Shown: positions 43,539-62,433, numbered from the stretch's first letter. The stretch: 64,000 nucleotides of DNA from an uncultured Pirellulales bacterium (GCA_964537505.1 CAZICK010000008.1:262-64261); one strand, 5' to 3'. Numbers and translations are program-made. The notes: generated from the letters alone by a model not told the origin.

Positions 43539-44330
43539 ATGCAAAGTAAAGACGCTGGTCTGAATACAAGAATACTTGTTATTTTGCTGACAGTTATCTT
43601 GTTTGCCCCATCCTGCAAAAAATCTGAACCGGCATCTGAACCGGGAGGAAACAAGGTTGCTGCCAACCCGGAAAAGTCCGGTGATAACGAAACCGGCAAA
43701 ACCTCCGAGCCAAGCAAAACCCCAACTACCGCCGGACTTGTGCCGCTGCCGATCAAGCTGCCTAAGCCAACGACCAGAGTTACGCCGACGCCTGCCACAG
43801 TACCCAACCTGGAGACACCTCTGGGCCGAGATCGCGACCCGTTCCTGGCCCCGGTTGGAGCAAAAAATGTTGCCTTGGGCAAACCGGTAAGCAGTAGCGA
43901 CGATGCGCCCATCGTCGGCGAGAACGAATTGATCACTGACGGCGACCGGGAAACGTCTGACGGCTCCTATGTTGAGTTAGGCCCAGGTCTGCAACACGTA
44001 ACCATCGACCTCGGAGCAAAATATGAAATATATGCCGTTCTTTTCTGGCACTATCACGGTAGCGACTGCGTCTATTTTGACGTAGTAGTACAGATTGCCG
44101 ACGATTCTGATTTTATTACGAATGTCACAACCATTTTCAACAACGATTACGACAACAGTTGCGGTTTTGGCAGTGGTCCCGATAAAAACTACGTCGAAAC
44201 GAATGAAGGCAAACTTGTCGATGCCAAACGTGCCCAGGGCCGTTACGTGCGACTTTACAGCGACGGTAACAACCTCTCCGAAATGAACCGGTACATCGAG
44301 GTCGAAGTTTACGGCAAACCCGTACAATGA
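43539..44330 (+). CDS. Secreted (possible lipo)protein: Pro/Thr-rich linker plus discoidin domain, paralog 2
   Basis: By eye it is about 80-85% identical to paralog 1. It starts 43 bp after paralog 1. Confidence 0.7.
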   Translation: MQSKDAGLNTRILVILLTVILFAPSCKKSEPASEPGGNKVAANPEKSGDNETGKTSEPSKTPTTAGLVPLPIKLPKPTTRVTPTPATVPNLETPLGRDRDPFLAPVGAKNVALGKPVSSSDDAPIVGENELITDGDRETSDGSYVELGPGLQHVTIDLGAKYEIYAVLFWHYHGSDCVYFDVVVQIADDSDFITNVTTIFNNDYDNSCGFGSGPDKNYVETNEGKLVDAKRAQGRYVRLYSDGNNLSEMNRYIEVEVYGKPVQ

Positions 44331-47234: not shown

Positions 47235-47594
47235 ATGAATTACGGACCAAGAGTTGAGATCAGCCATGAAGGCCGGATTGTCGTGGCTGAACTGCAGGAT
47301 GACGAAATACTGGAAGAAGCGATCATCAACGAAGTAGCAGATTCCCTGTTTTCGGTGGTCGCCGATACCCCACAGATAAAGTTGTTGTTGAGTTTCGAAA
47401 AAGTCAAGTACCTCAGCTCCAGTGCGCTGGGTATGCTCATCAGGTTGAACAAACGCGTAGAAGAGAACGGTGGAACACTAAAGCTCTGTCAGTTGCGAAA
47501 ATCCCTGTATGAGATATTTGCAATAACCAAGCTCGATCGGCTATTTGAAAGCTACGACGAGAAAAACACAGCGATAAGCAGCTTTGGGACCTGA
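47235..47594 (+). CDS. STAS-domain anti-sigma-factor antagonist (SpoIIAA/RsbV-like)
   Basis: The 119-aa product has the phosphorylatable-Ser context YLSSSALGMLI. Confidence 0.8.
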   Translation: MNYGPRVEISHEGRIVVAELQDDEILEEAIINEVADSLFSVVADTPQIKLLLSFEKVKYLSSSALGMLIRLNKRVEENGGTLKLCQLRKSLYEIFAITKLDRLFESYDEKNTAISSFGT

Positions 47595-47627
47595 CCTGTA
47601 AACTGTGAAAAATTTAATCTAAGTTCC

Positions 47628-48059
47628 ATGCCAACCAAAATATACCAGGAAATCGAATTCCCCAGCACTTGCTGGCAAGCCAAAATTGCTGAGGATCGCA
47701 TCATCGAAGCAACCAGAGCTTGCAAATACTCCGAGGAAGATATTTTTGCCCTGCGGTTGAGCATGGAAGAAGCACTGCTCAACGCCATTCGACACGGAAA
47801 TACCAAAGACCAACAAAAAAAAATAACCTTACGCTACTGCGTAAACGAGCAGCAAATAGACATTTACGTAGCAGACGAAGGTTCGGGTTTTGATCCCATG
47901 AAAATTGCGGATCCGACGCTTCCAGAAAATCTGGAACGCCCAAATGGGCGAGGTATAATGTTAATGCGAGCCTACATGAATCTGGTTGAGTATAATGACG
48001 TCGGGAATGTGGTTCACCTGGTCAAGTTGAACTCACAAGCCCCAAAACACACCGGCTGA
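47628..48059 (+). CDS. Anti-sigma regulatory Ser kinase (SpoIIAB/RsbW-like HATPase)
   Basis: The N-box is EEALLNAIRHGN, G1 is DEGSGFD and G2 is GRGIMLM. Confidence 0.8.
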   Translation: MPTKIYQEIEFPSTCWQAKIAEDRIIEATRACKYSEEDIFALRLSMEEALLNAIRHGNTKDQQKKITLRYCVNEQQIDIYVADEGSGFDPMKIADPTLPENLERPNGRGIMLMRAYMNLVEYNDVGNVVHLVKLNSQAPKHTG

Positions 48060-48112: not shown

Positions 48113-48814
48113 ATGCAACGAAAACTCGTCAGAAACGCCACCGGCAGCCTGTGTTTTTCTCTCACGACAATGGCAATGTCGATCCTTATCTTGTCAGGCT
48201 GTCAATCCGGTTTCAACAGCAATCTTCCTCCATCGCAGGTGAGACCCGTCCAGTGGCCAGGCGTAACCGTACCAAAATATACTCCCCATTCTGCTCAGCC
48301 GGATTTCACGCCGAACAGTCAATTCCCCTACCAATGGCTCCCGATGCGCAACTACGAGGATTTTAATCGTTGGAAAGGAATCATAATTCATCATTCAGCC
48401 GGCGATTTCGGGGACGCGGCGACATTTGACCGGGAGCACAAAGAGAAGGGCTGGGACGGCTTGGGATACCATTTCGTCATCAACAACGGCAAAAACACAC
48501 GTCGCATAGGAGATGGTGTGGTACAAGTCGGCCAGCGATGGCAACAGCAAACCAAAGGCGCTCACTGCCGGGTCGATCCTTCCGACAATAACTACTGGAA
48601 CGAACATACCATCGGTATATGTCTGGTTGGCAATTTTGAAAATCACCGGCCCAGCGAGGCCCAGTGGCAATCGCTGGTAAAACTGGTCCGCTTTCTTCTG
48701 CAGCGATATCACATACCTGTTGACAAAATTAAATGTCACCGAGACATAAAACCAACCAAATGCCCCGGAAAAAACTTCTCACTGAACGAACTAAAACAGC
48801 GAATGCTATATTGA
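48113..48814 (+). CDS. N-acetylmuramoyl-L-alanine amidase (Amidase_2/AmpD-PGRP fold) lipoprotein
   Basis: The lipobox is ILSGC. The motifs IIIHHSAG, GYHFVI and the C-terminal KCPG are present. Confidence 0.75.
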   Translation: MQRKLVRNATGSLCFSLTTMAMSILILSGCQSGFNSNLPPSQVRPVQWPGVTVPKYTPHSAQPDFTPNSQFPYQWLPMRNYEDFNRWKGIIIHHSAGDFGDAATFDREHKEKGWDGLGYHFVINNGKNTRRIGDGVVQVGQRWQQQTKGAHCRVDPSDNNYWNEHTIGICLVGNFENHRPSEAQWQSLVKLVRFLLQRYHIPVDKIKCHRDIKPTKCPGKNFSLNELKQRMLY

Positions 48815-48815
48815 T

Positions 48816-50867
48816 TCAGTCGGATAAGCCCTCGCTTTTTATCTTTATATTCCGATACCACACCGCCTGACCATGATCCTGAAATCCGATATACCCCATC
48901 CGCGGCAGATCCTTATAGGCAATACCAAACTTATTTGGCGTACCGTCCGGATTTTTATGCGGCTCGGTCCACCTGTCCAGGTCCATATCGACGACCTCCC
49001 GGCCGTTCATCACCACGCTGACATGGCTACCTTGGGCCGATATCGTCATGCGGTTCCATTGCCCCGGCTCGTTCACCGTGTTCTCGCTAGGAGCCAAAAT
49101 ATCGAATATCCCGCCGCAATCGTGTTTGTCCGGCTGGGACTTACCGTAAGAGTCCAGCACCTGCACCTCGATCCACGGCAGCCACTCCCTGTCGCCGGTG
49201 CGGATGAAAATCCCGCTGTTGGTGTCCTTGGCAACCTTAAATCCCACATCTAAAATAAAATCGCCGTATTTGCCTTTCGTCCAGATGTCACCTCCACCGT
49301 TACGGGTCAACACACCTTCAGCAAACGTCCAGCTACCCGCCTTATACACACCGTTCGACAGGTCCTCGGCAAACAGATTCCGCCAGCCACTGGGCTTTAG
49401 CTTGCCTGCTGTCTCGCTGAAGTACACTACGCTTTTTCTTATTTCGGGAACCGAATTTTCCCAGTTATGTTCGTACTCAACCGAAAACACGCCCATAAAC
49501 TTTTGTCGGTGCAATTCCTCCAGTAGCGACTTTACGTTCGCCTTGCCCGTGCCCCAAACCACATCGTGTGTCCCCTCACTGCCGAAATCGTTCAGGTCCT
49601 TAAAGTGCAAACTGACTATACGCCCTTCGAGCTTCCTTAATGCTTCCAGCGGATCCACATCTGAACGCATCCAATGACCGGTATCGGCGCATACGCCAAT
49701 CCATTTGCTCCGCCCCTTGCAAACCTCCAGCACTTTATCCGGATTCCAGTACTGCGACGGCTTGGGATGGTTATGTATCGCCACCTTGATCTTGTATTCA
49801 TTGCATAGCTTGTCAACCAGGTCGAACGCATCCTCCGGCGGTTCCGATACAATCGTTTCAATGCCCATATCCTGGGCAAAATCAAAAACCTTGCGGCATT
49901 CAACCTCATTGTTCGGCAGTCCTACCACACCGTAATTGACCAATTTTACCCCGGCATTGCTGAGCTTGTGCTTGACCTGTTGGCGAAGCTCGGCCGGCAT
50001 ATTATGATCGAATCTTACGCCAGGGATTTCTTTGCTCAACTGCTGACCCGGATACCCTTCGATCCAGTTTAACCCCAGCGAGGCGGTCTTATCGACCGCT
50101 TCATAAAATGTGAACAAATGAAACGAATACGCCTGCGCCCCCAGCCGCCAGCCGTCATAAGCATCCGTCAGCGGATGACAATTTCGCACCTCCGGGAAAA
50201 TCTCGTGCACGAAAATATTGCGAAAGCGGGCAGCGTTGTTGTCATAGCCCTCACCACCAGGGTGAACTTGTAAAGACAATCTCCCTTCCGCCGGTATTCC
50301 CTTTGTAGTCTCGGCCGTGTGCTGAAAATCGGTAACGAGCGCATCGTTGATCCAGACACGAATATGGGCGGGCTCACCCTGACAGATAATTCTCATCCGG
50401 TTCCACTGATCCTTCCGGAAATGTTTAACGCCGTCTGGACAATGCTGAACAAAACCACGCGTCCACGGACAATAAATTCCGCCAACCTCGCCGCCGGATC
50501 GATAATCCAGGGTTACCTGATGGCTCTTGCCGTCCGGACCGGTACGAAGAAAAACACCACTATCGAAAGGCCAATCGATTTTTGTCTCCAGCGTAAGCTC
50601 AAAATCCCGGAAATTACGTAGCGTGCTGAGAAAACCGCCCTTACCGGGCGGGTCTTGAACTCCAACAATCGCTCCATCTTCCACGGTCCACTTGCCCGCC
50701 AGGCCATGGCCAGGCAGATTATCATGCCTTGCCCAACCGCTAAGGTCCACGCCGTTGAACAACGGCTCGAAACCCGCAGGCGTCTGACCTTCACAAATTA
50801 AGCAGAAGCTGAAGAACACAACCGTCAACACTAATAACGTAATCGGCACGAATTCTCGTCGATTCAT
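48816..50867 (-). CDS. Secreted triple-domain protein: DUF1080 / xylose-isomerase-like TIM barrel / DUF1080
   Basis: A GGGAGG SD sits 6 nt before the ATG at 50867, followed by a signal peptide. DUF1080 hallmarks are FNGVDLSGW...FRNIFV and GWRNLFAEDLS...WYRNIKIK. The central region reads VAIHNHP...LHFKD...EYEH. Confidence 0.75.
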   Translation of the reverse strand: MNRREFVPITLLVLTVVFFSFCLICEGQTPAGFEPLFNGVDLSGWARHDNLPGHGLAGKWTVEDGAIVGVQDPPGKGGFLSTLRNFRDFELTLETKIDWPFDSGVFLRTGPDGKSHQVTLDYRSGGEVGGIYCPWTRGFVQHCPDGVKHFRKDQWNRMRIICQGEPAHIRVWINDALVTDFQHTAETTKGIPAEGRLSLQVHPGGEGYDNNAARFRNIFVHEIFPEVRNCHPLTDAYDGWRLGAQAYSFHLFTFYEAVDKTASLGLNWIEGYPGQQLSKEIPGVRFDHNMPAELRQQVKHKLSNAGVKLVNYGVVGLPNNEVECRKVFDFAQDMGIETIVSEPPEDAFDLVDKLCNEYKIKVAIHNHPKPSQYWNPDKVLEVCKGRSKWIGVCADTGHWMRSDVDPLEALRKLEGRIVSLHFKDLNDFGSEGTHDVVWGTGKANVKSLLEELHRQKFMGVFSVEYEHNWENSVPEIRKSVVYFSETAGKLKPSGWRNLFAEDLSNGVYKAGSWTFAEGVLTRNGGGDIWTKGKYGDFILDVGFKVAKDTNSGIFIRTGDREWLPWIEVQVLDSYGKSQPDKHDCGGIFDILAPSENTVNEPGQWNRMTISAQGSHVSVVMNGREVVDMDLDRWTEPHKNPDGTPNKFGIAYKDLPRMGYIGFQDHGQAVWYRNIKIKSEGLSD

Positions 50868-50899
50868 CTTATACCTCCCGGGTAAGCGGCAAACGAAAA

Positions 50900-52273
50900 C
50901 TACAGGGACCATCCCTGACGATATTGATCGCGAACGTATTGATTCGCTTCATCCACATTGGTAACCTTCATGTTCAGACCATCCCAATCGAGCTTCTTAC
51001 CCTTGCAGCGGATGGCAAGATTGCCCATTACAACTGTCTCGGTCAAAGGACCGGAATAATCAAAACTGGAACTGGGCTGCCTGCCTTCTTTGCAGCACCT
51101 GATCCAATCCCGTTCATGACCGCCCTCAGAGCCATCGACTCTGGCGATCGTTTTCTCCGGTCGCTGATATTCCTGCATCTTCGTCTCAGGTATCAGCCGC
51201 GGACCACTGCCGTAACAGCCACACACCAATTTACCCTTATCGCCCACAAAAAGTACGCCACCATCATTATCACCCATGCGCCGGTTCGGTTCGAGTTCTT
51301 CCGGCCGGGCAGGCATCATGCCACCATCGTACCAGGTCAGCTTAACCGGCGGCATATCACCCCGCTCGGGAAACTCATATCGCACTATCGACGCCACGGG
51401 CGCGGATTCGGAGTTGACCTTGGTGGCACAAGCCTCCACACCACTCGGATAACCGAGCTTAAGGGCCCAGAACGCCGGATCGATTATATGGCACGCCATA
51501 TCACCAAGTGCCCCAGTACCGAAATCCCACCAGCCACGCCAATTAAATGGCAAATACACCGTATTATATGGCCGTTCCGGTGCTGGTCCAAGCCACAAAT
51601 CCCAATCCAGGGTATCCGGCACCGCCGGCGTATCCTCAGGACGATCCATTCCCTGCGGCCAGATCGGACGATTGGTCCAGGCATGAACTTCACGTACCGC
51701 ACCGATCGCACCATCCCATATCCACTCACATACCAGGCGAATCCCCTCGCCGGAATGCCCCTGATTGCCCATTTGGGTAACGACCCCGGCTTTGCGGGCC
51801 GCCTCGGTCAACATACGAGCCTCATAAACGCAATGCGTCAAAGGTTTTTGACAATATACGCTTTTGCCGCTCTTGATCGCCGCCATAGAAATAACAGCAT
51901 GAGTATGATCGGGCGTAGCCACGATAACCGCGTCGATATCTTTCTGCTGATCGAGCATTTTGCGGTAATCGCGGTATGTCTTAGCCTTGGGATATCGCTT
52001 AAATGTTCCAGCCGCGTAATTGTCGTCCACATCACACAGGGCGACAATATTCTCACCGCTGGCGGCATTGACGTTATTCCCGCCCATACCACCGACACCG
52101 ATACCGGCTATATTGAGCTTTTCGCTTGGTGGAGTATCACCATTACGTCCCAGCACATAGCTGGGAACTATGGTAAACGCGGCCACCGCCGCAGCCGAGC
52201 CACCAACAAAATCACGCCGCGAAATCTTCACATCCCGGCTGGACAATATCCTGTTTTTCCTGTGATCCGCCAT
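50900..52273 (-). CDS. Gfo/Idh/MocA-family oxidoreductase with a twin-arginine signal
   Basis: An AAGGAG SD precedes the ATG at 52273. The TAT motif is SRRDFVGGSAAAVAAF and the Rossmann motif is IAGIGVGGMGG. Confidence 0.8.
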   Translation of the reverse strand: MADHRKNRILSSRDVKISRRDFVGGSAAAVAAFTIVPSYVLGRNGDTPPSEKLNIAGIGVGGMGGNNVNAASGENIVALCDVDDNYAAGTFKRYPKAKTYRDYRKMLDQQKDIDAVIVATPDHTHAVISMAAIKSGKSVYCQKPLTHCVYEARMLTEAARKAGVVTQMGNQGHSGEGIRLVCEWIWDGAIGAVREVHAWTNRPIWPQGMDRPEDTPAVPDTLDWDLWLGPAPERPYNTVYLPFNWRGWWDFGTGALGDMACHIIDPAFWALKLGYPSGVEACATKVNSESAPVASIVRYEFPERGDMPPVKLTWYDGGMMPARPEELEPNRRMGDNDGGVLFVGDKGKLVCGCYGSGPRLIPETKMQEYQRPEKTIARVDGSEGGHERDWIRCCKEGRQPSSSFDYSGPLTETVVMGNLAIRCKGKKLDWDGLNMKVTNVDEANQYVRDQYRQGWSL

Positions 52274-52479
52274 CTTTAAACACTCCTTATGTACCAATCG
52301 CCTGTGAATTTGCAATGCTGGTTTTTCGTAAATCCCTTAATTCCAAGGTAATATAAAGATCGCTACCTTGATTTTCTACACCCGTCTGGTATAAACAAGG
52401 ACATCTACGAAAAAACACACCAGCATCATAGTATTAACAAATATTGCGAATACGTCAAGCCTGCCACCGATCATTTCTT

Positions 52480-54130: not shown

Positions 54131-54796
54131 ATGAAAAACCCGAAAAACTCTTATTCCGATGGAACCAGCCGGTACGCCGAACGTCAAACAGATAGAGTCT
54201 CTCAGAACATCTGCGATGGCGGCAGCGAAGACGATGTGATTATAAAACGATGCCGGACAGGCAATATGGTTGCCTTCGAACAATTGGTACTGAAGTATCA
54301 GGATCGTTTGTTCAACGCGGTTTTTCGGATGGTGGGCGACTATGATGACGCTATGGAGCTGACTCAGGAAACCTTTTATCGGGCTATGAAAGGGCTGAAA
54401 AAGTTTCGTGGAAACGCTGGCTTCTACACATGGCTGTTCCGAATAGGGATGAATTTGTGCATCAATCATCACCGGCGCCATCAGAGAGTACGCATCATAT
54501 CTCTGGCCGGTGATGATCAGTTAGGGCATCAGGCTGACGCTCTGACGGTAATGGCAAAGGCAAATGATAGTTCGCCCGTGTATCAAGCTCAGGTTAGGGA
54601 AAGCCATGGGCGGGTATTGGCGGCCCTGGAAGAGTTGGAAGCCTCGGCCAGGGTGGTAGTGGTTTTGCGAGACATCGAAGAATTAGATTATGCTCAAATC
54701 GCCAATATCCTGCAGGTACCTACAGGTACTGTCAAAAGTCGTTTGTCGCGGGCACGTGCTGCGTTGCGAAGGCAACTGCTGAAAGGCCAATGTTGA
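54131..54796 (+). CDS. ECF-type RNA polymerase sigma factor
   Basis: Region 2 reads FEQLVLKYQDRLFNAVFRMVGDYDDAMELTQETFYRA. Region 4 reads ELDYAQIANILQVPTGTVKSRLSRAR. Confidence 0.85.
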   Translation: MKNPKNSYSDGTSRYAERQTDRVSQNICDGGSEDDVIIKRCRTGNMVAFEQLVLKYQDRLFNAVFRMVGDYDDAMELTQETFYRAMKGLKKFRGNAGFYTWLFRIGMNLCINHHRRHQRVRIISLAGDDQLGHQADALTVMAKANDSSPVYQAQVRESHGRVLAALEELEASARVVVVLRDIEELDYAQIANILQVPTGTVKSRLSRARAALRRQLLKGQC

Positions 54797-54909
54797 ATAA
54801 GGCGACAGGCACGAGGTGGTAGTAGTAATAGTAGTAGTAAGCAGTACGGTCAATTTGAGAAACTTGATTAAGTCTAAAATAATGCGATTATTAACCTGAT
54901 TGGAAGGCT

Positions 54910-56178
54910 ATGGCTGAAAAAGACATACATCCCGACAAAGAGCTTATCGCGGTTCTTAGCGCGTACCTGGACGGCGAACTGAGTCCGGGTCAGGCGGAAA
55001 AAATCGAGCGACGACTCGCTGAAGATCCCAGCATGCGACAATTACTGAACGAATTGGGACAGGTATCGCAAATGGTGCGTCAACTTGAGCGAACTAAAGC
55101 ACCGGACGGGCTGGCGGATGAGGTGACGCAACGGCTGGAACGCGATCTGCTGCTGGACAGAAGCGACGTCCTGGCGGAACTGGCTGGGGAGAAACATCTG
55201 CGGCTGCGACGGTTCGCCACGGCTGCGGCGATGGTTATGCTCATCGGAGCCATCGGAACCATTATCTATCACGTTTTGAGCAAACCCTACATCCCCCGAC
55301 CGGAAGGGGTAACAGATAAGTTTGTAGCCGTTGCTCCGGAAAAGCCACGAACAGTGGAAACACCGAAAATGACAGTAGCCGATGACGCAGCAGAGAAAGT
55401 CACAGGACCGGTTGAAACAGCGGTCGAAAAAGAGATTGAATCGATAATCGATAAAATATCCGAAATCAAATACAGCAACCTGAGATTAGTAGTTGCAGGT
55501 CCGGATATATTAACGGAAACCGGTCGATTGGAAAAACTGTTTGCCGATCAAAATATCAGGAAAGTAATCCGTAGTCAGATAAGCGAAAACTACTATCAAT
55601 ATGCCTTTGTATGTCCGACCGACCAGTTTCAACGCATTTTCGGCGGTATCAGGCATAAAGATAACCAAATCGACCTTGTCGTCAGCGACGATCAGGGCCA
55701 ATGTGTGGTTGTGCTACCGCGGGCAACGCAACAGCAGGCTATGAAACTGGCTGGCGAGGCAAATCCGACGGTGCAACTGACCCATGCGATGCAATTTGCC
55801 CTGGCGGATAATACTACACCTGGCCAGAATGACATCCATGCGGAATGGCTTCAATGGATTGCCAAAGAGCAACCATCGCTTGACGATCTGCGGGTACTCG
55901 CAAGACCGTCGGAAAAGGGCAACGAAGAAAAAATTGGAAAAATTTACAGGCCGGCATCGGAGGCATTAATGGCCTCTACCGAAGAGCCTGCCCAGTCTGA
56001 ACCGGCGCAATTGGTGGCTGTCGTAGTGGTTGTGCAATCCGCTGAAAAACCCGATGAAGATTCGAGTCCATCGCAGGATACCGGTCGATCTTCAATTAAA
56101 AGTAACATCGATACGCCTTCCATCGGGAATGATACCGGCGCCAATCTCGACCCCAATACGCCAAATAGCAATTTTTAG
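54910..56178 (+). CDS. Anti-sigma factor with one TM span and a long extracytoplasmic region
   Basis: The N-terminus LSAYLDGELSPGQAEKIERRLAEDP matches the anti-sigma N-terminal motif. The TM span is AAAMVMLIGAIGTIIY. It follows the ECF sigma gene. Confidence 0.7.
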   Translation: MAEKDIHPDKELIAVLSAYLDGELSPGQAEKIERRLAEDPSMRQLLNELGQVSQMVRQLERTKAPDGLADEVTQRLERDLLLDRSDVLAELAGEKHLRLRRFATAAAMVMLIGAIGTIIYHVLSKPYIPRPEGVTDKFVAVAPEKPRTVETPKMTVADDAAEKVTGPVETAVEKEIESIIDKISEIKYSNLRLVVAGPDILTETGRLEKLFADQNIRKVIRSQISENYYQYAFVCPTDQFQRIFGGIRHKDNQIDLVVSDDQGQCVVVLPRATQQQAMKLAGEANPTVQLTHAMQFALADNTTPGQNDIHAEWLQWIAKEQPSLDDLRVLARPSEKGNEEKIGKIYRPASEALMASTEEPAQSEPAQLVAVVVVVQSAEKPDEDSSPSQDTGRSSIKSNIDTPSIGNDTGANLDPNTPNSNF

Positions 56179-61269: not shown

Positions 61270-62433
61270 GTGAAAGCTGGTAATTCGACCGACAGCAAAG
61301 GATTCCGGCAAAACCTGGTTTTTCGGAAGGGAGAGAAGTTGAGGAGAATAGAGGATTCTAATCGTATAAATATACTATCGTTGCTGAACGGCGATATGGA
61401 GGATCGTCTGCGCCGGCAGATAGAAGGGAATAATAATCTTTGTTATCGAAAAGCTGAATTGCCTGCGGACTGTTCGCTGCCCGAGGCGATAATCGACAGC
61501 TCTTTCTGGTCGCTGTTGCCTGCGGAGAATGTCGATGTGGTGCTGCTGGCGGTAACCGGCCCGGATATGCAACGTTTGAACCGGAAGGTCGAGGAAAAAA
61601 CTTCCAGCAGGAATCTGACGGGACAATTCTGGAAAGAAACGTCCATAGCGGTAGTTGCGGTTCTGGTGGAAGACTCAGTACATGATGCCGTACAGGCGGC
61701 AAAGCTGGATTTCGACGGCATTATTGCCGAACCGTTTCTGGCCCGGCAGTTGCCGGGTATTTTTCAGCAGGCGATAGAACGCAGCCGGGGCAGACATTAC
61801 ATTACCAGCCGCTATCGCAGGATGCGGCATCTGTTTCGAAACGTTAATCGCAATCGCCGGCAGTTGCGAAACAAAATGGACCTGCTTTGCCGTGATCTGG
61901 TCCAGTCCAACGCCAATTTGACCAATACCCTGCACGATCTGCGCCGAATTTATAATTTTCAAAGCGATCTGACCGGTGAATTTGATTTGTGTTATATGTT
62001 GCACAAGGCGCTGCGACAGATCAAAGAGCAGATACCTGAATCGAGTGCTGTTGTTTATCTTTGCAGCAGTGACAAGATCGAAGCTCACATCTCAGGTCCA
62101 TGGTACGATAACCGGCGAGACCTCAATGAGATTGAAAAGCTGCTGAAGGAAACCGTCATCAGCGAACTAATTACCTCGGGGCGTCTGATATTGACCGGGG
62201 ATGCGGGCGCTTGCCAGAAAATACCACCAAAACAACGCAAGGAACTGGCGGGACTGTCGCTTATGGCACTGCCGTTGTTTTTGGACAATGAGCTGCTGGG
62301 CGGATTGGTCGTATATCGTAATTGGAGCAGCCCTTTGACCGTTTCCGAAAGCAACTTCGTAAAACCATATCTGCCGCCGCTGGCTCGCGCCATTGAGGCA
62401 ATACAAAAACTCAATTCCTTGATAGTCCGATAA
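61270..62433 (+). CDS. Signalling protein with a degenerate receiver-like N-terminus, a coiled coil and a GAF-like C-terminus
   Basis: The receiver-like strands are VDVVLLAV and VVAVLVEDS...GIIAEPF, with the acceptor Asp and conserved Lys apparently replaced. The C-terminus reads LMALPLFLDNELLGGLVVY. The start is uncertain. Confidence 0.45.
   Translation: MKAGNSTDSKGFRQNLVFRKGEKLRRIEDSNRINILSLLNGDMEDRLRRQIEGNNNLCYRKAELPADCSLPEAIIDSSFWSLLPAENVDVVLLAVTGPDMQRLNRKVEEKTSSRNLTGQFWKETSIAVVAVLVEDSVHDAVQAAKLDFDGIIAEPFLARQLPGIFQQAIERSRGRHYITSRYRRMRHLFRNVNRNRRQLRNKMDLLCRDLVQSNANLTNTLHDLRRIYNFQSDLTGEFDLCYMLHKALRQIKEQIPESSAVVYLCSSDKIEAHISGPWYDNRRDLNEIEKLLKETVISELITSGRLILTGDAGACQKIPPKQRKELAGLSLMALPLFLDNELLGGLVVYRNWSSPLTVSESNFVKPYLPPLARAIEAIQKLNSLIVR

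What the first reader, a model, noticed from the sequence alone, without database searches (positions are those of the whole stretch)
48816..52273. TAT-exported Gfo/Idh/MocA oxidoreductase plus a DUF1080 / TIM barrel / DUF1080 fusion: possible periplasmic oxidative glycoside-cleavage module
Seen in sequence:
- Two co-directional genes are separated by 32 bp, and the second has a strong GGGAGG SD.
- Gene 1 carries a twin-arginine signal (SRRDFVGGSAAAVAAF) and a Rossmann GxGxxG motif.
- Gene 2 (683 aa, with a signal peptide) fuses two DUF1080 jelly-roll domains around a xylose-isomerase-like TIM barrel (HNHP...HFKD...EYEH).

Established knowledge: Pfam names DUF1080 a 3-keto-disaccharide hydrolase domain. 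As I recall, 3-keto (oxidative) glycoside-cleavage routes combine a sugar C3-oxidising dehydrogenase with TIM-barrel lyase/isomerase-like enzymes.

Inference: this pair puts all three activities of such a route into two exported polypeptides. I do not recognise the triple fusion as a characterised enzyme.
Basis: partly seen in the sequence, partly recalled or inferred. Interest (0 to 1): 0.55.

Follow-up and report, generated by a model that had tools for sequence, protein, structure and literature searches.

The report
Two-gene periplasmic 3-keto glycoside-cleavage module
Two adjacent exported proteins, a sugar C3-dehydrogenase and a three-domain fusion of lyase/hydratase-type domains, form a compact, uncharacterised variant of the recently described bacterial pathway that cuts glycosidic bonds by oxidation and elimination rather than ordinary hydrolysis.

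Summary
On the minus strand, gene 1 (52273-50900, 457 aa) is a TAT-signal Gfo/Idh/MocA enzyme. Gene 2 (50867-48816, 683 aa) follows after 32 bp and a GGGAGG Shine-Dalgarno, and reads signal peptide, DUF1080, xylose-isomerase-like TIM barrel, DUF1080.

- Gene 1 is a close homologue of the glycoside 3-dehydrogenases AL3/BT2158 (PDB 8tdf, E 2e-142) and keeps all six published active-site residues.
- The TIM domain keeps the H-x-H / Asp / His / Glu set of the 3-keto-glycoside beta-eliminases.
- The C-terminal DUF1080 keeps the NSG, E-x-Q, NK and Q-x-H motifs of the AL2/BT2 lyase-hydratases.

The pair is co-conserved: 50 of 64 informative related loci have a gene-1 homologue directly upstream of the TIM-DUF1080 gene.

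The TIM-DUF1080 fusion is common, mainly in Planctomycetota, and I found no paper describing it. The exact DUF1080-TIM-DUF1080 order occurs only here and in one 94 % relative. Its N-terminal domain is elsewhere mostly a standalone protein or part of other fusions.

Verdict: a new variant of a known kind, of moderate interest. Substrate and division of labour are inferred.

The parts
50900..52273 (-). Gene 1: TAT-exported Gfo/Idh/MocA oxidoreductase, predicted glycoside 3-dehydrogenase (457 aa)
   Evidence: NCBIfam NF058561 BT_2158_fam, 643.5 bits, E 2e-193 (cut-off 750). PDB 8tdf E 1.9e-142 and 8tdh E 1.8e-139. The AL3 active-site residues are conserved as Q171, R202, W205, D258, H262 and Y354.
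52142..52228 (-). Twin-arginine signal peptide of gene 1 (residues 16-44, ISRRDFVGGSAAAVAAFTIVPSYVLG)
   Evidence: TIGR01409 scores 20.6 bits against a cut-off of 16.7. Pfam TAT_signal scores 19.2, below its cut-off. The same motif occurs in 122 homologues from related loci.
51767..52114 (-). NAD-binding Rossmann domain of gene 1, with GIGVGG at residue 57
   Evidence: PF01408, residues 54-169, E 1e-18.
52283..52288 (-). AAGGAG Shine-Dalgarno of gene 1, 9 nt before the ATG
   Evidence: Read from the sequence.
50868..50899 (-). 32-nt intergenic spacer containing the GGGAGG Shine-Dalgarno of gene 2 (50874-50879)
   Evidence: Read from the sequence. A weak hairpin plus T-run overlaps the stop codon of gene 1 (50917-50903).
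48816..50867 (-). Gene 2: exported tri-domain fusion DUF1080(A')-TIM-DUF1080(C), 683 aa
   Evidence: Pfam; PDB sequence hits per domain; AF2 model with pLDDT 83.8; Foldseek.
50787..50867 (-). Signal peptide of gene 2 (MNRREFVPITLLVLTVVFFSFCLICEG). It looks Sec-type, but it contains an RREFV twin-arginine-like motif.
   Evidence: Helix at residues 6-22 followed by a low-confidence linker in the model; sequence. Homologues mostly lack the RR.
50172..50780 (-). N-terminal DUF1080 domain (residues 30-232). It belongs to the A' subfamily, which has the invariant signatures SHQVTLD, QDPPGKGG, TDFQHT and LQVHPG.
   Evidence: PDB 4jqt domain 1, E 5e-17. Its best homologues (55-79 % identity) are almost all standalone proteins of about 200-260 aa. 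Alignment A6.
49398..50165 (-). Xylose-isomerase-like TIM barrel (residues 235-490), predicted metal-dependent 3-keto-glycoside beta-eliminase. Key residues are H365, H367, D395, H398/W399, H421 and E464/E466.
   Evidence: PF01261. PDB 3p6l E 8e-79 and TM 0.92. Profile hits to AtOGE 8bvk at 1.2e-5 and to 8tcd/8tcs at about 2e-3. hhalign to P2B11-Iso2 gives probability 93.8 % with the motifs aligned. The residues are invariant in 28 and 58 sequences.
48819..49397 (-). C-terminal DUF1080 domain (residues 491-683), predicted 3-keto-glycoside lyase / 2-hydroxy-3-keto-glycal hydratase. Key residues are N550, E567, Q569, K646, Q663 and H665.
   Evidence: PDB 3s5q E 3.5e-42, 3imm E 1.1e-38 and AL2 8v31 E 1.5e-13, with the motifs aligned. 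Invariant columns in A3 and A5.

Best explanation
The two genes form a small operon that encodes a periplasmic glycoside-cleaving system working through a 3-keto intermediate, not through Koshland-type hydrolysis.

1. Gene 1 folds around NAD in the cytoplasm and is exported by the TAT pathway. This is inferred from its TAT signal and from the behaviour of AL3/BT3.
2. In the periplasm it oxidises the C3-OH of a gluco-configured glycoside to the 3-keto-glycoside.
3. The exported fusion protein processes that intermediate. Its metal-dependent TIM barrel removes the C2 proton and expels the aglycone (1,2-beta-elimination), giving a 2-hydroxy-3-keto-glycal.
4. A DUF1080 domain hydrates the glycal to the 3-keto sugar. 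It may also eliminate the anomer that the TIM domain does not accept.
5. The 3-keto sugar is reduced back to the free sugar by the NADH still bound to gene 1, which resets the enzyme. The net reaction is hydrolysis with no external cofactor.

**Shown here:** homology of gene 1 with a fully conserved active site; domain content and conserved catalytic-type residues of gene 2; gene adjacency and co-conservation.

**Inferred:** which domain performs which step, the role of the extra N-terminal DUF1080, the natural substrate, the metals, and the closed redox cycle.

Fusing the domains plausibly keeps the unstable 3-keto intermediates close to the next active site.
For: **Gene 1**
- NF058561 'glycoside 3-dehydrogenase', E 2e-193.
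- PDB 8tdf, E 1.9e-142. The chain index plus 29 reproduces the published AL3 numbering for Gln161, Arg192, Trp195, Asp248, His252 and Tyr349. All six are identical in gene 1.
- TAT signal.

**TIM domain**
- H365-N-H367, D395, H421 and E464/E466 are invariant.
- The same H-x-H / Asp / His / Glu set is the Mn2+/Co2+ site plus catalytic His or Glu of AtOGE (His132, His134, Asp163, His189, Glu233) and of AL1/BT1 (His178/180, Asp211, His237, Glu272).
- The D-to-H spacing is 26 in AL1, AtOGE and here.
- Profile hit to AtOGE 8bvk, E 1.2e-5, with profile positions 126-218 against chain 127-222.
- hhalign to the thioglucuronide-cluster enzyme P2B11-Iso2 gives 93.8 %, with HNH, DT(G)HW and H.KD aligned.

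**C-terminal DUF1080**
- Explicit alignment to AL2 (8v31): NSG=NSG, IEVQVLD=PEYQVLD, PNKF=PEKW, GFQDHG=GFQDHG.
- These correspond to the Asn134, Glu164/Gln166, Lys245 and Gln273/His275 set of BT2.

**Linkage**
- 50 of 64 related loci with enough upstream DNA have a gene-1 homologue (at least 45 % identity) directly upstream on the same strand, with gaps of about 110-330 bp.
- The arrangement is syntenic in a 94 % relative.
- The TIM domain is found fused to three DUF1080 types in several orders.
- A standalone homologue of the N-terminal domain lies inside one such cluster.

**Biochemistry of the characterised homologues:**
Against: - No activity data exist for these proteins or for any TIM-DUF1080 fusion.
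- Gene 1 scores below NCBI's equivalog cut-off (643.5 against 750 bits).
- The closest relatives of the TIM domain are structural-genomics proteins of unknown function (3p6l, 4kw2, 3lmz). Its profile similarity to the likely AL1/BT1-type entries is weak (E about 2e-3) and no better than to IolE or IolI.
- Both DUF1080 domains are in subfamilies different from AL2/BT2.
- The residue aligned with the conserved Tyr in AL2 (taken to be BT2 Tyr190) is Phe588 here.
- BT2 Glu103 could not be mapped.
- The N-terminal domain replaces the E-x-Q strand motif with H-Q-V-T.
- The window has no second Gfo enzyme, sugar transporter or regulator nearby.
Confidence: 0.7

Rival explanations
1. The chemistry is the same but the substrate class is different. 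The pair would act on free cyclitols, anhydrosugars or C-glycosides rather than O-glycosides. Examples are periplasmic inositol oxidation and dehydration (IolG/IolE-like), levoglucosan breakdown (LGDH plus TIM-barrel eliminase), and C-glycoside deglycosylation (DgpA/DgpBC-like).
For: - Weak NCBIfam hits of gene 1 to levoglucosan dehydrogenase (1e-20) and IolG (3e-19).
- Weak NCBIfam hit of gene 2 to IolE (4e-7).
- The TIM profile hits IolE and IolI (5e-6) as well as or better than the likely AL1/BT1 entries.
- DgpA and C-glycoside deglycosidase entries appear among the distant hits.
Against: - Gene 1 is far closer to BT2158/AL3 (E 2e-193 and 2e-142) than to any of these enzymes.
- Gene 1 keeps the AL3 residues that contact O5/OH-6, OH-3 and OH-2 of a bound glucoside.
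- The first metal ligand is His, as in the O-glycoside eliminases AtOGE and AL1, not Glu as in the C-glycoside enzymes.
- DUF1080 domains are not part of the inositol, levoglucosan or C-glycoside systems described in the papers read.
Confidence: 0.12
2. One or both DUF1080 domains are non-catalytic carbohydrate-binding modules (CBM66-like lectin folds). They would tether the TIM-barrel enzyme to a glycan, and only the TIM domain would be catalytic.
For: - DUF1080 and CBM66 models overlap on planctomycete proteins.
- The N-terminal domain lacks the E-x-Q motif.
- Tyr is replaced by Phe in the C-terminal domain.
- A TIM barrel (AtHYD) can serve as the hydratase in Agrobacterium, so a DUF1080 is not strictly needed.
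Against: - The C-terminal domain keeps the polar residues that line the metal and sugar site of BT2.
- The N-terminal subfamily shows invariant His, Gln, Asp and Thr signatures across homologues with 54-78 % identity. That pattern fits an active site better than a lectin surface.
- AL2 and BT2 are proven enzymes.
Confidence: 0.13
3. The dehydrogenase is not recycled by reducing the 3-keto sugar. Instead it passes electrons to the respiratory chain, so the module is an energy-yielding periplasmic sugar oxidase and the 3-keto products are imported.
For: - In most related loci the TIM-DUF1080 gene is followed by a second TAT Gfo enzyme, a multihaem cytochrome c (41 of 80 loci) and a cytochrome b561-like subunit (25 of 80).
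- Nasseri et al. mention cytochromes as a possible re-oxidant.
Against: - None of these genes is in the 64-kb window.
- The near-identical relative has the same bare two-gene arrangement.
- AL3/BT3 complete the cycle in vitro with a 3-keto sugar as the oxidant.
Confidence: 0.1

Closest known systems
Bacteroides thetaiotaomicron BT2156-BT2159 and Alistipes AL1-AL4 glycoside-cleavage clusters (Liu 2021, PMC8121099; Nasseri 2024, bioRxiv 10.1101/2024.03.25.586180)
   Same: - A TAT-exported Gfo/Idh/MocA 3-dehydrogenase; gene 1 is a close homologue with an identical active site.
- A PF01261 TIM-barrel lyase and a PF06439/DUF1080 lyase-hydratase.
- All components are periplasmic.
- A closed oxidation-elimination-hydration-reduction cycle is proposed.
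   Different: - Here the TIM and DUF1080 units are one polypeptide with a second DUF1080.
- The TIM domain is 3p6l-like and the DUF1080 domains are 3s5q/3imm-like and 4jqt-like, which are distinct subfamilies.
- There is no second cytosolic Gfo enzyme (BT2159/AL4) and no SusR-type regulator nearby.
- The host is probably a planctomycete rather than a gut Bacteroidota.
Agrobacterium tumefaciens GlycDH / AtOGE / AtHYD pathway (Bitter 2023, PMC10628242; PDB 8bvk)
   Same: - A metal-dependent TIM-barrel beta-eliminase with a His-x-His / Asp / His / Glu site.
- The residue numbering almost coincides with the TIM domain here: H131, H133, D161, H187 and E230/E232 against His132, His134, Asp163, His189 and Glu233.
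   Different: - The Agrobacterium oxidase is a flavoenzyme, not a Gfo/Idh/MocA enzyme.
- Its hydratase is another TIM barrel.
- It has no DUF1080 and no fusion.
- Sequence similarity is detectable only by profile (E 1.2e-5).
JCSG structures of unknown function from Parabacteroides distasonis and B. thetaiotaomicron: 3p6l (BDI_1903), 4kw2, 3lmz, 3s5q, 3imm, 4jqt (BT3469)
   Same: These are the nearest solved relatives of each of the three domains: 46 % identity and TM 0.92 for 3p6l; 37-38 % identity and TM 0.83-0.86 for 3s5q and 3imm.
   Different: They are separate single-family proteins; 4jqt has two DUF1080 domains. None has an assigned function.
C-glycoside deglycosidase systems DgpA / DgpBC and CGD (Mori 2021, PMC8563793)
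   Same: A Gfo/Idh/MocA 3-oxidase is followed by a metal-dependent TIM-barrel eliminase. The paper cites 3p6l as a structural neighbour of the CGD alpha subunit.
   Different: - CGDs are cytoplasmic heterodimers.
- Their first metal ligand is Glu.
- They have additional residues for aromatic enolisation.
- They have no DUF1080.

Membership tests
BT2158/AL3-type periplasmic glycoside 3-dehydrogenase (NCBIfam NF058561; Gfo/Idh/MocA) | Gfo/Idh/MocA Rossmann and C-terminal domains | tested here: met
   PF01408 E 1e-18 and PF19051 E 1.6e-19.
BT2158/AL3-type periplasmic glycoside 3-dehydrogenase (NCBIfam NF058561; Gfo/Idh/MocA) | Twin-arginine export signal | tested here: met
   TIGR01409 scores 20.6 bits against a cut-off of 16.7, and the SRRDFV motif is present. 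The Pfam model is just under its cut-off.
BT2158/AL3-type periplasmic glycoside 3-dehydrogenase (NCBIfam NF058561; Gfo/Idh/MocA) | Score at or above the curated equivalog cut-off (750 bits) | tested here: not met
   643.5 bits, E 2e-193, covering profile positions 1-437 of 487. The adjacent homologue in L001 also falls short, at 593.8 bits.
BT2158/AL3-type periplasmic glycoside 3-dehydrogenase (NCBIfam NF058561; Gfo/Idh/MocA) | AL3 cofactor and substrate residues Gln161, Arg192, Trp195, Asp248, His252 and Tyr349 | tested here: met
   They are Q171, R202, W205, D258, H262 and Y354, with a constant offset in the 8tdf alignment. Q, D and H are invariant or nearly so in 123 family members.
BT2158/AL3-type periplasmic glycoside 3-dehydrogenase (NCBIfam NF058561; Gfo/Idh/MocA) | Tightly bound NAD and C3 oxidation of glycosides | not testable with these tools
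   Needs purified protein.
3-keto-glycoside beta-eliminase TIM barrels (AL1/BT1, AtOGE, P2B11-Iso) within PF01261 | Xylose-isomerase-like TIM-barrel fold | tested here: met
   PF01261 E 1.7e-20. The model has pLDDT above 90 in this domain and TM 0.92 to 3p6l.
3-keto-glycoside beta-eliminase TIM barrels (AL1/BT1, AtOGE, P2B11-Iso) within PF01261 | Metal site His/Asp/His(/Glu) with an H-x-H second His (catalytic base in AtOGE, substrate ligand in AL1) | tested here: met
   H365, H367, D395, H421 and E464/E466 are invariant. They align explicitly to P2B11-Iso2. Their positions fit AtOGE from the hit coordinates and published numbering, and fit AL1 by spacing. The three-dimensional geometry was not inspected.
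3-keto-glycoside beta-eliminase TIM barrels (AL1/BT1, AtOGE, P2B11-Iso) within PF01261 | Clear sequence relationship to a characterised eliminase, closer than to other PF01261 enzymes | tested here: inconclusive
   Profile E-values are 1.2e-5 (8bvk), 1.6e-3 (8tcd) and 1.8e-3 (8tcs), against 5e-6 for IolE and IolI. hhalign to Iso2 gives probability 93.8 %.
DUF1080 3-keto-glycoside lyase / 2-hydroxy-3-keto-glucal hydratase (AL2/BT2; PF06439) | PF06439 jelly-roll domain | tested here: met
   Two stretches, E 1.2e-72. Foldseek to AL2, BT2 and 8rr2 gives E about 1e-13 and TM 0.57-0.61.
DUF1080 3-keto-glycoside lyase / 2-hydroxy-3-keto-glucal hydratase (AL2/BT2; PF06439) | Conserved channel residues of BT2 (Glu103, Asn134, Glu164, Gln166, Tyr190, Lys245, Gln273, His275), C-terminal domain | tested here: inconclusive
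   N550, E567, Q569, K646, Q663 and H665 align with the matching AL2 motifs. The Tyr position is Phe588 here, though it is Tyr in most TIM-DUF1080 relatives. Glu103 was not mapped.
DUF1080 3-keto-glycoside lyase / 2-hydroxy-3-keto-glucal hydratase (AL2/BT2; PF06439) | The same residues in the N-terminal domain | tested here: not met
   Q200-x-H202 is present, but the strand motif is H116-Q-V-T119 instead of E-x-Q. This is an invariant signature of a separate subfamily.
GH16 glycoside hydrolases (the name some database records give to relatives) | Catalytic motif E-[ILV]-D-[IVAF]-[VILMF](0,1)-E | tested here: not met
   No match in gene 2. The motif is also absent from BT2.
Complete BT2156-2160 / AL1-5 type operon | A second (cytosolic) Gfo/Idh/MocA enzyme and a dedicated regulator next to the genes | tested here: not met
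   There is no second Gfo homologue anywhere in the window. The flanking genes are purB, an amidase, ApbE and other housekeeping genes.

The most novel reading that the evidence does not exclude
The fusion is a self-sufficient three-active-site 'processing arm'. Together with a single dehydrogenase it would make a complete broad-specificity, cofactor-neutral exo-glycosidase from only two polypeptides. In this reading the N-terminal domain is a member of a widespread planctomycete DUF1080 subfamily of unknown function (invariant SHQVTLD / TDFQHT / LQVHPG). It would contribute a third, so far undescribed step, such as elimination on another anomer or sugar, or handling of the 3-keto-sugar isomers. 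The fusion would then serve as a Rosetta stone that assigns this subfamily and the 3p6l-type TIM barrels to the 3-keto pathway.
Probability: 0.3. Interest if true: 0.6.

Novelty: new variant of a known kind. Interest (0 to 1): 0.45.

Why it matters
The 3-keto route to glycoside cleavage was dissected only recently, and mainly in gut Bacteroidota. It cuts alpha, beta, thio- and pseudo-glycosides that ordinary glycosidases cannot. This locus adds three points.

- **Spread and form.** The route appears widespread in Planctomycetota and other environmental phyla, where the lyase and hydratase units are covalently fused.
- **Functional context.** Natural fusions and strict gene adjacency place three groups without assigned function in this pathway: 3p6l-type TIM barrels, 3s5q/3imm-type DUF1080 domains and a 4jqt-like DUF1080 subfamily. 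Several have had solved structures since 2009-2013.
- **A simple test system.** This is a minimal two-protein system that is easy to reconstitute. It can be compared with relatives that add a multihaem cytochrome. That comparison makes testable how the tightly bound NADH is re-oxidised in the periplasm, a question Nasseri et al. left open.

The finding does not overturn anything. It extends a known mechanism.

Tried and rejected
- **N-terminal domain as a degenerate binding module.** I first read it this way, because the [Q/E]-x-[Q/E/D] strand motif is Q-V-T only in the window. I rejected that when close homologues showed SHQVTLD is invariant in a whole subfamily.
- **Triple fusion from neighbouring genes.** I expected a merger of two adjacent genes, because P0125 and P0026 seemed to share a 76-kb contig. 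In that genome the standalone homologue is not next to the TIM gene. Only one of four homologues examined lies in such a cluster.
- **Residue-level alignments to AL1/BT1, BT2 and AtOGE.** The supplements held as text contain only the P2B11 sequences and not AtOGE. I used P2B11-Iso2, the AL2 alignment printed by the PDB search and the hit coordinates instead.
- **Literature.** Searches for a description of the fusion found none.
- **RNA elements.** Rfam found nothing credible around the genes. ROSE_3 at E 0.37 is treated as chance.
- **Promoters and terminators.** The scan gave only consensus-level matches, not clearly above shuffled expectation.
- **Apparent very large fusions.** The tblastn matches of about 2.8 kb in some loci turned out to be two adjacent genes, not one protein.
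- **GH16 naming.** The label 'family 16 glycoside hydrolase' used for relatives is rejected, because the motif is absent.

Full report
**1. Observation**

Both genes lie on the minus strand.
- Gene 1 runs from ATG 52273 to TAG 50900 (457 aa). An AAGGAG Shine-Dalgarno sits 9 nt upstream of the start.
- Gene 2 starts at ATG 50867, after a 32-nt spacer that contains GGGAGG 6 nt before the start. It ends at 48816 (683 aa).

Pfam results:
- Gene 1: the Gfo/Idh/MocA Rossmann domain (PF01408, E 1e-18) and C-terminal domains.
- Gene 2: two stretches of PF06439 (3keto-disac_hyd/DUF1080, E 1.2e-72) flanking PF01261 (xylose-isomerase-like TIM barrel, residues 258-472, E 1.7e-20).

The twin-arginine signal of gene 1 passes the NCBIfam TAT model (20.6 bits, cut-off 16.7).

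An AlphaFold2 model built on 58 homologues has mean pLDDT 83.8 and pTM 0.73. It shows a signal-peptide helix, a beta domain, an alpha/beta barrel and a second beta domain. The barrel and C-terminal domain have pLDDT above 90. The N-terminal domain has 50-80 because few sequences cover it.

**2. Gene 1**

- The best NCBIfam model is NF058561, 'BT_2158_fam glycoside 3-dehydrogenase' (643.5 bits, E 2e-193). This is below the strict equivalog cut-off of 750.
- The best solved structures are 8tdf and 8tdh (E 1.9e-142 and 1.8e-139).
- Nasseri et al. list the AL3 pocket as Gln161 (NAD), Arg192, Trp195, Asp248, His252 (OH-3) and Tyr349 (OH-2). In the printed alignment, the 8tdf chain index plus 29 reproduces all six numbers with the right residue types. 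Gene 1 has the identical residues at Q171, R202, W205, D258, H262 and Y354.
- Among 123 family members from related loci, Q, D and H are invariant or nearly so. The substrate-contact positions vary: R/K/H, W/S and Y/H.

Gene 1 is therefore a bona fide AL3/BT2158-type enzyme with the AL3-like pocket.

**3. Gene 2, domain by domain**

*TIM domain (residues 235-490)*
- It is 46 % identical to 3p6l (BDI_1903; sequence E 8e-79, Foldseek TM 0.92). It is also related to 4kw2 and 3lmz. All three are structural-genomics entries with no assigned function.
- A profile of 28 family members reaches the characterised O-glycoside beta-eliminase AtOGE (8bvk) at E 1.2e-5.
- It reaches entries 8tcd/8tcr, 8tcs and 8tct at E 1.6e-3 to 1.3e-2. 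These are probably the TIM-barrel enzymes deposited with the Nasseri study, judged only from the accession series and names.
- The relationship to known eliminases is therefore distant, and no closer than to IolE or IolI.
- The catalytic set is nevertheless there and invariant: H365-N-H367, D395(-T-G-H398-W399), H421(-F-K-D) and E464-Y-E466.
- In AtOGE the Mn2+ ligands are His132, Asp163, His189 and, weakly, Glu233; His134 is the base. In domain numbering the window residues are H131, H133, D161, H187 and E230/E232, and the profile hit pairs positions 126-218 with chain 127-222.
- AL1 has His178, His180, Asp211, Trp214, His237 and Glu272, with similar spacings; the Asp-to-His spacing is 26 in both.
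- hhalign against P2B11-Iso2, whose sequence I took from the paper's supplement, aligns HNH, DT(G)HW and H.KD explicitly (probability 93.8 %, E 1.7e-7).

*C-terminal DUF1080 (residues 491-683)*
- It is closest to 3s5q and 3imm (E 3.5e-42 and 1.1e-38).
- It aligns to AL2 (8v31, '3-keto-2-hydroxy-glucal hydratase') at E 1.5e-13.
- The alignment pairs NSG with NSG, IEVQVLD with PEYQVLD, PNKF with PEKW and GFQDHG with GFQDHG. These are the motifs I take to hold the conserved Asn134, Glu164/Gln166, Lys245 and Gln273/His275 of BT2.
- The position I take to be the conserved Tyr190 is Phe588 here, though it is Tyr in most relatives.
- Glu103 could not be mapped.

*N-terminal DUF1080 (residues 30-232)*
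- It resembles domain 1 of 4jqt (E 5e-17).
- It has 55-79 % identical homologues, and almost all of the best 120 are standalone proteins of about 200-260 aa. Some have a Cys-containing, lipoprotein-like signal. They occur in Planctomycetota and, less often, other phyla (317 clusters at E 1e-5 or better). A few other fusions carrying this domain also exist.
- This subfamily has its own invariant signature: QDPPGKGG, SHQVTLD, TDFQHT and LQVHPG.
- The junction in gene 2 (…FRNIFVHEI-FPEVRNC-HPLTDAYDGW…) joins the end of that domain to the point where mature TIM-DUF1080 proteins begin.
- The triple protein therefore looks like a standalone DUF1080 gene fused in front of a TIM-DUF1080 gene.

**4. 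Distribution and co-conservation**

- Among 5.8 billion protein clusters, all of the best 120 hits combine PF01261 with PF06439. Nearly all are TIM-DUF1080 proteins of about 450-520 aa with 61-74 % identity. Sources label them 'sugar phosphate isomerase/epimerase', 'family 16 glycoside hydrolase' or 'DUF1080 domain-containing protein'.
They come mostly from Planctomycetota MAGs (Phycisphaerae, Sedimentisphaerales and bins labelled Pirellulales). KSB1, Calditrichota, Bacteroidota, Fidelibacterota and Victivallales are also represented.
- I classified 83 TIM-bearing ORFs. In this tally the letter A pools two only distantly related DUF1080 types (27 % identity): the window's N-terminal domain and the first domain of the L031 protein.

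| Architecture | ORFs |
|---|---|
| TIM-C | 57 |
| TIM-A-B | 14 |
| TIM alone | 7 |
| TIM-A (cut or incomplete) | 2 |
| C-TIM-C | 1 |
| A-TIM-C (the window and its 94 % relative L081) | 2 |

- TIM-TIM-DUF1080 and TIM-DUF1080-DUF1080 forms also exist.
- An exhaustive HMMER search of 1.84 billion cluster representatives found no other full-length match to the triple order.
- In 50 of 64 loci with at least 1.7 kb of upstream sequence, a gene-1 homologue (at least 45 % identity) lies directly upstream on the same strand, with gaps of about 110-330 bp. It is often a tandem array of two to seven paralogues.
- L081 is syntenic with the window across purB, both genes, the convergent amidase gene and beyond.
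- One standalone homologue of the N-terminal domain lies inside such a cluster (L088/L089). Three others do not.
- The second refutation criterion, lack of co-conservation, is not met either.

**5. Context in the window**

- The neighbours are unrelated housekeeping genes. They include adenylosuccinate lyase upstream on the same strand and a convergent Amidase_2 gene whose stop is 1 bp from the stop of gene 2. Further out are ApbE, a PMT-like glycosyltransferase, phosphoglucomutase, TilS and PanE.
- There is no second Gfo gene, sugar transporter or dedicated regulator nearby.
- The pair therefore stands alone as a two-gene unit.

**6. Mechanism**

The characterised system works as follows.
1. 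AL3/BT3, with tightly bound NAD, oxidises C3 of the glycoside.
2. AL1/BT1 (TIM, Co2+) eliminates the aglycone from 3-keto-beta-glycosides.
3. AL2/BT2 (DUF1080) eliminates from 3-keto-alpha-glycosides and hydrates the 2-hydroxy-3-keto-glucal.
4. The 3-keto-glucose re-oxidises the enzyme-bound NADH.

Given the conserved pocket of gene 1, the conserved eliminase-type site of the TIM domain, the conserved AL2-type motifs of the C-terminal domain and the tight genetic coupling, the same cycle is the best explanation here (confidence about 0.7).

The assignment of steps to domains, the role of the N-terminal domain, the metals and the substrate are inferences. In Agrobacterium the hydratase is itself a TIM barrel, so the roles could be distributed differently.

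Rivals:
- A different substrate class (about 0.12).
- DUF1080 domains as binding modules (about 0.13; not exclusive of the main reading).
- Respiratory re-oxidation (about 0.1).

**7. Comparison and novelty**

- The system works like BT2156-2159 / AL1-4.
- Gene 1 can be filed as a member of the AL3/BT2158 family, with the caveat of the sub-threshold equivalog score.
- The TIM and DUF1080 domains should be filed only as members of PF01261 and PF06439 with eliminase- and hydratase-type residues. They are not AL1/BT1 or AL2/BT2 orthologues.
- I found no paper describing the fusion.
- This is a new variant of a known kind. The interest is moderate: a specialist would not be surprised by the chemistry. 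The fusions do give functional context to several structure-known, function-unknown families, and they provide a minimal system for experiments.

**8. Source organism**

The source is probably a planctomycete of the Phycisphaerae/Sedimentisphaerales type. This is judged only from the taxonomic labels of the closest relatives and is an inference.

Noticed in passing
Related loci, e.g. L001:8469-16794, L031:8558-16466, L088:1723-12681: Most relatives carry a larger conserved operon. It holds one to seven BT2158-like TAT Gfo genes, then TIM-DUF1080, then often a DUF1080-DUF1080 protein. A second, distant TAT Gfo enzyme follows (about 50 loci), then a multihaem cytochrome c (41 of 80 loci). After that come a cytochrome b561/FdnI-like membrane subunit (25 of 80) and sometimes an NCS1 or MFS permease. 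This could couple periplasmic glycoside 3-oxidation to the respiratory chain, which bears on how the bound NADH is re-oxidised. None of these genes is in the window.
   Followed up: partly
L070:3-9857, L072, L064, L060, L031 (upstream of the TIM gene): These loci have tandem arrays of five to seven paralogous BT2158-like dehydrogenase genes in front of a single TIM-DUF1080 gene. Across 123 paralogues the catalytic Gln, Asp, His and Lys are invariant or nearly so, but the AL3 substrate-contact positions vary (R/K/H, W/S, Y/H). This suggests many substrate specificities feeding one lyase/hydratase.
   Followed up: partly
window 50172-50780 and proteins P0121-P0240: The N-terminal domain of gene 2 belongs to a large family found mostly in Planctomycetota. 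The closest members are almost all standalone DUF1080 proteins of about 200-260 aa, some with a lipoprotein-like signal. The family has the invariant motifs QDPPGKGG, SHQVTLD, TDFQHT and LQVHPG and no known function. The same domain also occurs at the C-terminus of proteins of about 900-1050 aa.
   Followed up: partly
window 50868-50912: An alternative in-frame ATG at 50912 would extend gene 2 to 698 aa and overlap gene 1 by 13 nt. A gene caller used that start for the 94 % relative. With that start the NRREFV motif sits behind a 16-residue n-region and resembles a TAT signal. Most family members have no RR, so the export route of gene 2 is uncertain.
   Followed up: partly
window 48814-48816: The convergent Amidase_2 gene (48113-48814, plus strand) and gene 2 end 1 bp apart, which leaves no room for separate terminators. 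The same arrangement is kept in L081.
   Followed up: no
window 50903-50917: A short hairpin followed by a T-rich run overlaps the stop codon of gene 1 (CAGGGATGGTCCCTG TAGTTTTCGT). The same stretch gave a sub-threshold ROSE_3 match (E 0.37). It is probably chance, but it could modulate read-through into gene 2.
   Followed up: no
window 47235-48059 and 54131-56178: A STAS-domain protein and an HATPase-type anti-sigma kinase pair lie downstream of gene 2 on the plus strand (domain names taken from the syntenic genes in L081). An ECF-type sigma factor and a putative anti-sigma protein (422 aa) lie just beyond purB. No link to the glycoside genes was tested.
   Followed up: no
window 43539-44330 and 61270-62433: Two sizeable ORFs (263 and 387 aa) have no Pfam match at E 1e-4 or better. 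The first has a signal-anchor-like N-terminus and its stop overlaps the start of the PMT-like glycosyltransferase gene.
   Followed up: no
L001:4291-8403: This ORF encodes a 1370-aa protein that combines ThuA (trehalose utilisation), HEAT repeats and a C-terminal DUF1080. It lies directly upstream of the Gfo / TIM-DUF1080 genes. It is another fusion that links DUF1080 to 3-keto-disaccharide metabolism.
   Followed up: no
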